DNA of 64,000 nucleotides, from NCBI RefSeq assembly GCF_055900595.2, contig NZ_CM148325.1. One strand, written 5' to 3'. A program made the position numbers. Shown here one piece after another: positions 55,101-58,100 of the stretch. Within the stretch, counting starts at the first letter, position 1; each line of letters starts with the position of its first letter.

Positions 55101-58100
55101 ACAAAATATTGTTGATAAGACATGGTTAGGTGGTGAGCTGCCTCGGAAAATATGACGACAGTAATGATTTCTAAGAGATTTGAAATGCGTTGATAACAAA
55201 ATCTGAAATATAGGAGTCTGTTTAGGATTGTGTGTAAATGCCTTTTCTCAAAAGTAACCGTCCAGGCGGTCACTGAATCCGATAATAAAGCGGCTTATTG
55301 CCATACCCCAGTCCTTCAACGGCATCGTCCATTTCGGGGACGATGCCTGTATTGCCAGACACACCACTTTTTTCACCGGCTCGTCTGTCGGAAACACTTA
55401 CGCTTTTTGATCGCATGGCGGATCACGCTGTTTAGCGACCCGATGGCATTCGTCAGCGACAGCGACGACTCTTACCGCTGGAACGAAGTGGATAAGCGCT
55501 TCAGTGTCGACGACACGCCGAACGAGCCGAACCGCTTCGGCTGGGTGGGGGAAATCGATCCATATGGTTATTTTTCAGAAAATAATGAGAACATCTGTGC
55601 TTTATATAACCAGATAAAACCACGCAATAAGCATAAATATTACAGGTGATAATACTTTTATTTATCACTTCGGTTATATTCAATAAACATAATAACTTTC
55701 TCTTAAATCACAGGTCCAGCCATTGCAGTTGTTATCAGACGTAGATTAGGATGCCAGTGCATTTACATGGGATGGTTTGTGTATCCACCGGGTATAATGC
55801 GTGATATCATTAATTTCAACACTAACTGTGCGATTGTCTTTCATGCCTGCCCTCCGGGCAGGCTTTTTTCTGCATGCAGAAAAAAATCACCGGAAAAAAC
55901 GGCAGCAGATAAAAAAGAGTGCTGACAGGGATATTATTTCATCCGCTCACTAGCGAGATGATAAACGTTGCTACGTTCACGTTTACCTACTGCGACTACC
56001 GCAATAATTAACATATCATCAATAACCTGATAAACAAGACGAATGAATCGCCACAGGTTTAATAGACACCTCAGAGTCATTTAAGATGACTTAAAGAGAG
56101 GTGCCCATGAGCGGTAAGCGTTATCCCGAAGAGTTTAAAATTGAAGCAGTCAAACAGGTTGTTGATCGCGGTTATTCTGTTGCCAGCGTTGCAACACGTC
56201 TCGATATCACCACCCACAGCCTTTACTCCTGGATAAAGAAGTACGGTCCGGATTCTTCCACTAATAAAGAACAGTCAGATGCTCAGGCCGAGATCCGCCG
56301 TCTCCAGAAAGAGCTGAAGCGGGTTACCGACGAACGGGACATATTAAAAAAAGCCGTTGTAGATTCAATTGGTCAACGCAACAGTTATGTGAAAACATGG
56401 GGTTGCAGAGGTTTTTTGAATGAGACGAACATTTACAGCAGAGGAAAAAGCCTCTGTTTTTGAACTATGGAAGAACGGAACAGGCTTCAGTGAAATAGCG
56501 AATATCCTGGGTTCAAAACCCGGAACGATCTTCACTATGTTAAGGGATACTGGCGGCATAAAACCCCATGAGCGTAAGCGGGCTGTAGCTCACCTGACAC
56601 TGTCTGAGCGCGAGGAGATACGAGCTGGTTTGTCAGCCAAAATGAGCATTCGTGCGATAGCTACTGCGCTGAATCGCAGTCCTTCGACGATCTCACGTGA
56701 AGTTCAGCGTAATCGGGGCAGACGCTATTACAAAGCTGTTGATGCTAATAACCGAGCCAACAGAATGGCGAAAAGGCCAAAACCGTGCTTACTGGATCAA
56801 AATTTACCATTGCGAAAGCTTGTTCTGGAAAAGCTGGAGATGAAATGGTCTCCAGAGCAAATATCAGGATGGTTAAGGCGAACAAAACCACGTCAAAAAA
56901 CGCTGCGAATATCACCTGAGACAATTTATAAAACGCTGTACTTTCGTAGCCGTGAAGCGCTACACCACCTGAATATACAGCATCTGCGACGGTCGCATAG
57001 CCTTCGCCATGGCAGGCGTCATATCCGCAAAGGCGAAAGAGGTACGATTAACATAGTGAACGGAACACCAATTCACGAACGTTCCCGAAATATCGATAAC
57101 AGACGCTCTCTGGGGCATTGGGAGGGCGATTTAGTCTTAGGTACAAAAAACTCTCATATAGCCACACTTGTAGACCGAAAATCACGTTATACGATCATCC
57201 TTAGACTCAGGGGCAAAGATTCTGTCTCAGTAAATCAGGCTCTTACCGACAAATTCCTGAGTTTACCGTCAGAACTCAGAAAATCACTGACATGGGACAG
57301 AGGAATGGAACTGGCCAGACATCTAGAATTTACTGTCAGCACCGGCGTTAAAGTTTACTTCTGCGATCCTCAGAGTCCTTGGCAGCGGGGAACAAATGAG
57401 AATACAAATGGGCTAATTCGGCAGTACTTTCCTAAAAAGACATGTCTTGCCCAATATACTCAACATGAACTAGATCTGGTTGCTGCTCAGCTAAACAACA
57501 GACCGAGAAAGACACTGAAGTTCAAAACACCGAAAGAGATAATTGAAAGGGGTGTTGCATTGACAGATTGAATCTACAACAGCGTATTTTGCACAGGAGT
57601 CGCTGAAAAATACGCGTTAATCGAACAATGGCGACAACAATTTCCCATTGAAGCGATGTGTCAGGTATTTGGTGTATCCAGGAGCGGTTATTACAACTGG
57701 GTACAGCATGACCCCTCAGACAGAAAACAAAGTGATGAGCGGCTAAAACTGGAGATTAAGGTGGCACATATCAGCACTCGCGAAACATATGGAACCCGCG
57801 GCTCCAGACGGAGCTGGCAGAGAATGGCATCATCGTTGGTCGTGACCGACTGGCACGTCTTCGTAAGGAGCTAAGGCTACGCTGTTAGCAGAAACGCAAG
57901 TTCAGAGCGACTACGAACTCGAGCCACAATCTGCCAGTTGCGCCAAATCTGCTGAACCAGACGTTCGCTCCTACAGTACCAAATCAGGTCTGGGTGGCGG
58001 ACCTGACGTATGTTGCCACACAGGAGGGATGGTTGTACCTCGCTGGCATCAAAGATGTTTATACGTGCGAAATTGTCGGCTACGCCATGGGAGAGCGCAT

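What the first reader, a model, noticed from the sequence alone, without database searches (positions are those of the whole stretch)
56341..56363. Both IS30 copies inserted at the same position of IS3-family frameshift windows
IS30 copy 2 sits 5 nt after the A7 slippery run of an IS3-family orfA (ATATTAAAAAAAGCCGT|TGTAGATTC). IS30 copy 1 sits at the same offset in IS600 orfA (ATATTAAAAAAAGCAAC|, complement of 41146-41160). Two independent insertions at homologous nucleotides suggest the frameshift region of IS3-family elements is a preferred IS30 target.
Basis: partly seen in the sequence, partly recalled or inferred. Interest (0 to 1): 0.45.

Follow-up and report, generated by a model that had tools for sequence, protein, structure and literature searches.

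The report
IS30 hot spot inside IS3-family elements
Two copies of the mobile element IS30 sit at exactly the same spot inside two other mobile elements, because the conserved frameshift region of IS3-family elements matches IS30's known preferred target almost perfectly, and a survey shows most IS30 ends sampled lie at such sites.

Summary
IS30 copy 2 (56358-57578) and the truncated copy 1 (41145->40229, IS30 positions 1-917) each have their left end 5 nt after the A7 run of an IS3-family orfA: IS600 for copy 1, and an unnamed element, here called ISx, for copy 2. Copy 2's right flank is the rest of IS600, not of ISx. Copy 1's left junction plus copy 2's right junction form one clean IS600::IS30 insertion with a 2-bp AC duplication. 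A later IS30-by-IS30 inversion most likely separated the two halves.

Of 236 IS30 ends sampled from public contigs, 175 (74%) abut an IS3-family frameshift window. More than ten different IS3-family elements are hit, in both orientations, with clean 2-bp duplications. K-12 shows the same pattern in IS911 (IS30A, IS30D). A target matrix built only from non-IS3 sites finds the classical lambda hot spot and ranks the IS600 window first among 1.5 million positions.

The mechanism is IS30's known hot-spot targeting of a 24-bp quasi-palindrome. The codons for LKKA-x-A(Y/F)FA happen to spell that palindrome. The general link appears under-reported, but this is an extension of known biology. Both junctions are old and are shared by hundreds of E. 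coli genomes.

The parts
56358..57578 (+). IS30 copy 2, complete: 1221 bp, terminal IRs TGTAGATTCAAT..., intact 383-aa transposase ORF at 56420-57571
   Evidence: NF033563 IS30 family transposase, 277 bits against a cutoff of 80.
56044..56357 (+). Left part of an IS3-family element ('ISx'): orfA up to 5 nt past the A7 slippery run (56346-56352). It ends ...AAAAAAAGCCGT at the IS30 IRL.
   Evidence: The intact ISx (L003) reads AAAAAAAGCCGCGGCGTACTTC. NF033516 profile positions 1-81.
57579..58527 (+). Right part of IS600 (end of orfA plus a degraded orfB). It starts ACAGCGTATTTTGCACAGG directly after the IS30 IRR, and is the missing partner of the IS600 left part at 41146-41472.
   Evidence: 98.3-98.7% identity to annotated IS600. 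The intact IS600 reads AAAAAAAGCA[AC]AGCGTATTTT. NF033516.
40229..41145 (-). IS30 copy 1, truncated: IS30 positions 1-917 only, with the IRL at 41145
   Evidence: 99.9% identity to copy 2.
41146..41472 (-). Left part of IS600: orfA up to 5 nt past the A7 run (T7 on the + strand at 41151-41157). It ends ...AAAAAAAGCAAC at the IS30 IRL. This is the same junction as K-12 IS30D/insM.
38980..40228 (+). Uninterrupted IS911-like element whose right end abuts IS30 position 917 and truncates copy 1. Its own frameshift window (AC at 39313-39314) is an unoccupied predicted IS30 hot spot.
48242..48267 (+). Second unoccupied IS911-type frameshift window (ttaaaaaaggctACcgcgctcttgat) in another IS3-family element. 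It ties for the best predicted IS30 site in the window.
   Evidence: the ORF at 48115-49161 matches NF033516.

Best explanation
Both junctions come from ordinary IS30 hot-spot transposition. IS30 transposase inserts a circular intermediate with joined IRs at the centre of a roughly 24-bp quasi-palindromic target and duplicates the central 2 bp. The IS3-family orfA/orfB overlap region is a near-optimal natural version of that target. The codons for ...(I/L)-L-K-K-A-x-A-(Y/F)-F-A, which include the A6G/A7 slippery run, read TTAAAAAA(A/G)GCn-NN-nGCnnnnTT. That is an A-run plus GC on one side and its approximate reverse complement on the other. In this lineage IS30 inserted once into IS600 (AC duplication) and once into ISx, at the homologous dinucleotide. 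Homologous recombination between the two inverted IS30 copies then inverted the roughly 15 kb between them. That left IS600-left attached to copy 1 and IS600-right attached to copy 2, next to ISx-left. Copy 1 was later truncated at position 917 in a rearrangement involving an IS911-like element. Each insertion separates orfA from orfB, so the host IS3-family element can no longer make its OrfAB transposase. The junction anatomy, the target match, the recurrence and the inheritance are shown. The order of events, the inversion and the inactivation are inferred.
For: Anatomy. The IS600 empty site AAAAAAAGCA[AC]AGCG is reconstituted exactly by copy 1's left junction plus copy 2's right junction. 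Eighteen metagenomic IS30 copies carry this clean IS600-L-AC|IS30|AC-IS600-R form.
Recurrence: K-12 IS30A lies in IS911A as TTAAAAAAGGCT[AC]|IS30|[AC]CGCGCTC, and IS30D lies between IS600-L and an inverted IS911B-L. PMC9333248 states that IS911 in K-12 is interrupted by IS30A.
Survey: 74% of 236 ends lie at IS3-family windows, covering more than 10 different IS3-family elements from Escherichia, Yersinia, Kluyvera, Silvania, Tatumella, Shewanella, Marinifaba and others, in both orientations.
Target model: the half-site consensus from non-IS3 flanks is nTnAA(A)AAnGCnnn|. It finds the published centre of the lambda LHS hot spot at 33290/33291, scoring 13.2 against 5.7 for the next best site (LHS coordinates from PMC9333248). 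On the first matrix IS600 scores 18.3, IS911 16.1 and ISx 13.0. On the strict matrix IS600 scores 19.3, the best of about 1.54 million positions, and IS911 scores 17.8. The two best predicted sites in the 64-kb window are unoccupied IS911-type windows.
Known specificity: hot-spot and IR targeting with a 2-bp stagger (PMC9333248); 24-bp symmetric consensus (PMC12445084, citing Olasz 1998).
Against: The survey ends are not independent. The matrix also gives high scores to non-IS sites that are unoccupied, so sequence preference alone may not explain 74%. Tolerance of insertions in dead ISs and the copy number of IS3 elements probably contribute. The ISx junction reads GCCGT whereas the only intact ISx fetched reads GCCGC, and this 1-nt difference is unexplained. 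I could not read the original consensus paper (Olasz 1998) to compare my matrix with it directly. No transposition assay was possible.
Confidence: 0.85

Rival explanations
1. The enrichment reflects survival and spread, not insertion preference. IS30 inserts fairly widely, but insertions in genes are purged. Insertions inside other ISs are neutral, persist, and are copied around by horizontal transfer and recombination among IS copies.
For: The junctions are ancient and widely inherited. The identical ISx-L|IRL junction occurs in a second genomic context (L102). Many high-scoring non-IS sites are unoccupied.
Against: Neutrality would allow insertion anywhere along a 1.25-kb IS. Yet insertions fall on one dinucleotide in at least 10 different elements and in both orientations, with only a handful elsewhere in IS3-family DNA (6 ends). 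The site is also the best match to a matrix trained on non-IS sites and validated on lambda LHS.
Confidence: 0.1
2. The two window junctions derive from one ancestral insertion, copied between IS600 and ISx by recombination or gene conversion within the shared frameshift motif.
For: The two flanks share 14 identical nucleotides (ATATTAAAAAAAGC) next to the junction. Copy 2 is a demonstrable recombinant, ISx-L/IS30/IS600-R.
Against: Between the shared 14-mer and the IRL the flanks differ: CGT versus AAC. GCCG is ISx-specific, so an exchange within the 14-mer would not give this junction. Independent clean ISx::IS30 insertions with GC/GC duplications exist in both orientations, as do ISx-window junctions in Kluyvera, Silvania and Tatumella.
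Confidence: 0.03
3. IS30 has evolved to use other ISs as a safe haven, or as a competitor-killing target. The match to the IS3-family recoding site would then be selected, not coincidental, because that site is locked by a frameshift signal plus two overlapping reading frames and cannot mutate away.
For: IS600 and IS911 windows outscore the experimentally defined lambda hot spot and rank first and third of about 1.5 million positions. Most sampled IS30 ends sit there. The insertion splits orfA from orfB.
Against: There is no evidence of selection. The consensus is equally visible at non-IS sites. Insertions occur in both orientations, as expected for plain palindrome recognition. IS3-family members that lack the A-run motif were not examined.
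Confidence: 0.15

Closest known systems
IS30 'natural hot spot' (HS) targeting, e.g. the lambda LHS site (Olasz et al. 1998; Olasz et al. 2022, PMC9333248)
   Same: Insertion at the central 2 bp of a roughly 24-bp nearly palindromic sequence, with a 2-bp duplication and either orientation allowed. My matrix places LHS and the IS3-family windows in one target class.
   Different: Here the hot spot is a conserved functional region of another transposon family, not a fortuitous phage or plasmid sequence. The IS600 and IS911 windows score higher than LHS.
IS911A::IS30A and IS911B/IS600/IS30D nests in E. coli K-12 (insN-insI1, insO-insI3-insM)
   Same: Same insertion point relative to the A-run. 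The IS600-L|IRL junction in K-12 IS30D has the same junction sequence as window copy 1, within a 99.5%-identical 1244-bp match.
   Different: The window adds a third host element (ISx) and a hybrid copy, ISx-L/IS30/IS600-R. K-12 annotation and PMC9333248 describe the interruption but, as far as I could find, do not generalise it to IS3-family frameshift windows.
Other IS elements with sequence-specific targets in repeated DNA (e.g. IS families that target REP sequences, PMC1525189)
   Same: A transposase recognises a short palindromic repeated sequence, which gives nested or clustered mobile elements.
   Different: The target here is a protein-coding recoding site inside another IS, not an extragenic palindrome.

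Membership tests
IS30 (IS30 family insertion sequence) | About 1221 bp with about 26-bp terminal inverted repeats starting TGTAGATTCAAT | tested here: met
   Copy 2 is exactly 1221 bp with both IRs. It is 99.2-99.9% identical to the IS30 copies in FY10 and K-12. Copy 1 holds only positions 1-917.
IS30 (IS30 family insertion sequence) | Single DDE transposase of about 383 aa matching the IS30-family model | tested here: met
   The ORF at 56420-57571 (383 aa) hits NF033563 at 277 bits against a cutoff of 80.
IS30 (IS30 family insertion sequence) | 2-bp target site duplication | tested here: met
   Copy 2 as it stands does not show it (GT versus AC). Copy 1's left flank plus copy 2's right flank restores IS600 with an AC/AC duplication. 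Eighteen clean AC/AC IS600::IS30 copies were found elsewhere.
IS30 hot-spot (HS) target class | Roughly 24-bp quasi-palindromic target with insertion at the central 2 bp | tested here: met
   The half-site matrix from non-IS3 sites (nTnAAAAAnGCnnn|) identifies the LHS centre at 33290/1. It scores the IS600, IS911 and ISx windows at 19.3, 17.8 and 14.2, each the top site in its locus on the first matrix. The published consensus itself could not be read.
IS30 hot-spot (HS) target class | Experimentally elevated insertion frequency into the cloned site | not testable with these tools
   This needs a transposition assay. Only the natural occupancy survey is available.
IS3 family (the host elements IS600 and ISx) | Two overlapping ORFs (orfA, then orfB in the -1 frame) joined at an A6G/A7 slippery site | tested here: met
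   Intact IS600 (L004) and ISx (L003) are each annotated as a single transposase spanning both frames and carry ATATTAAAAAAAGC. The frames around the junction were checked. That this motif is the -1 frameshift site rests on established knowledge from IS911 and IS3-family work, not on a test here.
IS3 family (the host elements IS600 and ISx) | Match to the IS3-family transposase model | tested here: met
   The orfA stubs match NF033516 profile positions 1-81 (E = 2e-17 and 1e-11). The IS600 orfB remnant scores 200.8 bits against a cutoff of 160.

The most novel reading that the evidence does not exclude
IS30 is effectively a specialist parasite of IS3-family elements. Its dominant natural target is their programmed-frameshift window, which is locked by a slippery run plus two overlapping reading frames and so cannot easily evolve away. 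IS30 gains a harmless landing pad and at the same time disables a competing transposon family. On this reading the match is a selected strategy, not a coincidence of palindrome recognition.
Probability: 0.2. Interest if true: 0.65.

Novelty: new member of a known kind. Interest (0 to 1): 0.42.

Why it matters
It gives a simple sequence-level reason why IS30 is so often found nested in IS600, IS911 and related elements, including in the K-12 reference genome. It also predicts where IS30 will land: intact IS3-family windows are the top-scoring sites. Genome annotators could use this to resolve the shuffled half-IS pseudogenes (insN, insO, insM and similar) that clutter enterobacterial islands, and to reconstruct IS30-mediated inversions and deletions. 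It provides a natural target stronger than lambda LHS for IS30-based targeting tools. It is also a concrete case of one transposon family systematically inactivating another at a site that coding constraints keep from changing.

Tried and rejected
1. I looked for the 3' remainder of IS30 copy 1 (positions 918-1221) and for the right half of ISx in the window. Neither is present.

2. I first took copy 2 for a simple insertion. I rejected that because its flanks are GT and AC, and its right flank is IS600.

3. A replicative intramolecular inversion by IS30 could in principle produce the hybrid. I rejected it because it would join the IRR, not the IRL, to ISx-left. Two co-directional insertions followed by homologous inversion fit the junctions.

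4. I tried to read the primary target-specificity papers (PMC299879, PMC179709). They are not held, and Olasz 1998 is not in the library. Searches for 'GOHS', for IS30 with IS911, hot spot and frameshift, and for nested IS3-family terms found no explicit prior statement.

5. My first regular expression for the downstream half-site was too strict. It misclassified the IS600 and ISx right halves and was corrected.

6. The genome-contig scan gave only 19 loci and none from E. coli, so I added metagenome and viral scans.

7. I tried to settle the GT/GC difference at the ISx site using intact alleles. Only one intact ISx was among the fetched loci, so it stays unresolved.

Full report
**1. The observation**

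Reading the sequence and aligning IS30 against the window shows two IS30 copies.
- Copy 2 is complete: 1221 bp at 56358-57578 on the + strand, with an intact 383-aa transposase ORF.
- Copy 1 is partial: IS30 positions 1-917 at 41145->40229 on the - strand.

In IS30 orientation the left flanks are ...GACATATTAAAAAAAGCCGT|TGTAGATTC for copy 2 and ...GATATATTAAAAAAAGCAAC|TGTAGATTC for copy 1. Both orfA stubs align to positions 1-81 of the 369-position NCBIfam IS3-transposase profile, so the cuts are homologous in protein terms too.

The copy 1 flank is IS600, 99-100% identical to annotated IS600. The copy 2 flank belongs to a different IS3-family element, which PGAP annotates only as 'IS3 family transposase' and which I call ISx. 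It is common on enterobacterial plasmids.

**2.

Copy 2 has no target duplication: GT on the left and AC on the right. Its right flank translates as TAYFAQESLKNTR* and is 98.3-98.7% identical to IS600 over about 946-949 bp, so it is not ISx.

The intact IS600 reads AAAAAAAGCA[AC]AGCGTATTTT (L004). Copy 1's left junction (..GCAAC|) and copy 2's right junction (|ACAGCGTATTTT) are therefore the two sides of one clean IS600::IS30 insertion with a 2-bp AC duplication. Eighteen complete IS30 copies in metagenomic contigs still carry that clean form.

Copy 1 (-) and copy 2 (+) are inverted repeats about 15 kb apart. IS600-left and ISx-left both lie on the inner sides. A single homologous inversion between the two IS30 copies would restore IS600-L/IS30/IS600-R and ISx-L/IS30. 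This is an inference from the geometry. A replicative IS30 inversion would instead join the IRR to ISx-left, which is not what is seen.

Copy 1 is cut at position 917 by the right end of an uninterrupted IS911-like element (38980-40228). The other side of that element is not IS30.

**3. These junctions are old**

Each figure is the number of complete E. coli genomes, out of 5426, in which a 100-bp junction query is covered at 80% or more.

| Junction | Genomes |
|---|---|
| IS600-L\|IRL | 1283 |
| ISx-L\|IRL | 543 |
| IRR\|IS600-R | 1088 |

- Strain FY10 carries the same ISx-L/IS30/IS600-R hybrid, plus IS600-L/IS30/IS911-R.
- E. coli B carries ISx-L joined to a truncated IS30.
- In K-12 MG1655, IS30A splits IS911A as TTAAAAAAGGCT[AC]|IS30A|[AC]CGCGCTC.
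- K-12 IS30D has the same IS600-L junction sequence at its IRL as window copy 1, and the reverse complement of the IS911B window at its IRR.
- Olasz et al. 2022 state that K-12 IS911 is 'interrupted by the insertion of IS30A'.

**4. Survey**

- Of 236 IS30 ends with at least 30 nt of flank, 175 (74%) abut one half of an IS3-family window.
- 107 ends abut the upstream half, which ends ...L-K-K-A plus 2 nt.
- 68 ends abut the downstream half in reverse complement, beginning A-(Y/F/L)-(F/L)-(A/M).
- By unique flank type the figure is 43 of 91.
- An independent phmmer check found IS3-family OrfA next to 104 of 108 upstream-half ends and OrfB next to 63 of 69 downstream-half ends. It found no IS3 homology next to 53 of 61 other ends.

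The targets include IS600, IS911 variants, ISx, and at least ten other IS3-family elements. The source genera include Yersinia, Kluyvera, Silvania, Tatumella, Shewanella and Marinifaba. Clean insertions with perfect 2-bp duplications occur in both orientations in IS600 (AC/AC and GT/GT), in ISx (GC/GC both ways) and in IS911 relatives. The events are therefore multiple and independent.

For scale, K-12 has about 16 IS3-family copies in 4.6 Mb (IS2 7, IS3 5, IS150 1, IS600 1, IS911 2). Two of its three complete IS30 copies lie in such windows.

**5. Mechanism**

IS30 is known to insert through a circular intermediate with joined IRs. It targets either its own IRs or nearly palindromic hot spots, with a 2-bp stagger (PMC9333248). 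The hot spots are described as a 24-bp symmetric consensus (PMC12445084, citing Olasz 1998).

I built a half-site matrix only from flanks that are not IS3 windows. The consensus is nTnAAnAAnGCnnn|, or nTnAAAAAnGCnnn| with a stricter set of 41 flank types. In a 321-bp stretch of lambda it picks 33290/33291, scoring 13.2 against 5.7 for the next best site. The literature places the centre of the LHS hot spot exactly there, because the left part of LHS ends at 33290.

| Site | First matrix | Strict matrix |
|---|---|---|
| IS600 window | 18.3 | 19.3 (best of about 1.54 million positions) |
| IS911 window | 16.1 | 17.8 (third) |
| ISx window | 13.0 | 14.2 |
| Lambda LHS | 13.2 | 12.6 |

The two best predicted sites in the 64-kb window are the two unoccupied IS911-type windows, at 39313 and 48254.

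The reason is visible in the sequence. The reverse complement of the codons AAA-AAA-GCN is NGC-TTT-TTT. The conserved peptide LKKA-x-A(Y/F)FA across the orfA/orfB overlap therefore encodes an A-run-GC ... GC-T-run quasi-palindrome, and the duplicated dinucleotide lies at its centre.

**6. Consequences (inferred)**

The insertion separates orfA from orfB, so the host element can no longer produce the OrfAB fusion transposase. Both orfA frames read 106 nt into IS30, across the IS30 start codon. I did not test whether this affects IS30 expression.

**7. Caveats**
- The survey ends are not independent, and gut E. coli is over-represented.
- Other high-scoring non-IS sites are unoccupied. Tolerance of insertions in ISs, the copy number of IS3 elements, and spread by recombination probably inflate the 74% figure.
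- The ISx junction reads GCCGT, whereas the only intact ISx fetched reads GCCGC.
- Across the survey, only GC, GT and AC are seen at ISx sites. One otherwise clean insertion has GT on one side and GC on the other.
- This fits either an ISx polymorphism or carry-over of the 2-bp spacer from donors that sat in AC/GT sites. It is not resolved.

**8. Novelty**

The kind of event, IS30 hot-spot insertion, is well known, and IS911::IS30A in K-12 is annotated and published. Two points were not stated in any paper I could search: that the IS3-family frameshift window as a class is a near-optimal target, and that it is empirically the dominant IS30 target. I could not read Olasz et al. 1998. Its 'genomic' consensus was presumably derived partly from these very sites, so the link may be implicit there. 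I rate this a new member, or class of members, of a known kind, of moderate interest.

Noticed in passing
window 38980-40228: An uninterrupted IS911-like element abuts IS30 copy 1 at IS30 position 917/918. Its other flank (...ATCTTC|) is not IS30 and no 3-bp duplication is seen. Copy 1 was therefore truncated by a rearrangement at this element, not by a simple insertion.
   Followed up: partly
window 52279-53607: A 1329-bp IS4-family element (402-aa transposase, NF033591; IS10/ISVsa5-like by size) interrupts the Ag43-like autotransporter gene. FY10 and E. coli B lack it, and a 9-bp overlap of the flanking alignments marks the target duplication.
   Followed up: partly
window 40229-62000 versus L001 (FY10 3530000-3556000): The window and strain FY10 differ by a large inversion. 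One breakpoint lies in an IS3-family (ISEc31-like) element that is intact in the window (about 47.9-49.2 kb). In FY10 that element is split next to a group II intron. As a result the two IS30 copies are inverted in the window but direct in FY10.
   Followed up: partly
window 56101-56463 (+) and 41040-41408 (-): Both truncated orfA frames (ISx and IS600) continue 106 nt into the IS30 left end in the same phase. This gives the same tail of about 35 aa and crosses the IS30 transposase start codon (56420). Read-through from the host IS promoter could influence IS30 expression.
   Followed up: no
L036, L051, L058, L065, L067, L089, L101, L102, L118 (ISx::IS30 junctions): Next to IS30 ends, the central dinucleotide of the ISx site is GC (the intact allele), GT or AC, and nothing else. 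L036 has GT on one side and GC on the other. L102 has the window's ISx-L-GT|IRL junction in a different genomic context, with GT on both sides and a right flank that is not ISx.
   Followed up: partly
L039 (metagenome contig OASQ01000226.1): An IS30 IRR abuts a different position of IS600 orfA (...GAATCTGAAATTCTGCAACT|, the AELESEILQ region). Five further ends lie elsewhere in IS3-family orfB. Off-window insertions in these elements therefore exist but are rare: 6 of 238 ends.
   Followed up: no
K-12 L006 (NC_000913.3 4507125-4509801): The 327-bp IS600 fragment (insM) abuts IS911B about 110 bp downstream of the IS911 window. This suggests IS600 first inserted into IS911B orfB, IS30 then entered the IS600 window, and an IS30-mediated deletion joined its IRR to the IS911B window.
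   Followed up: partly
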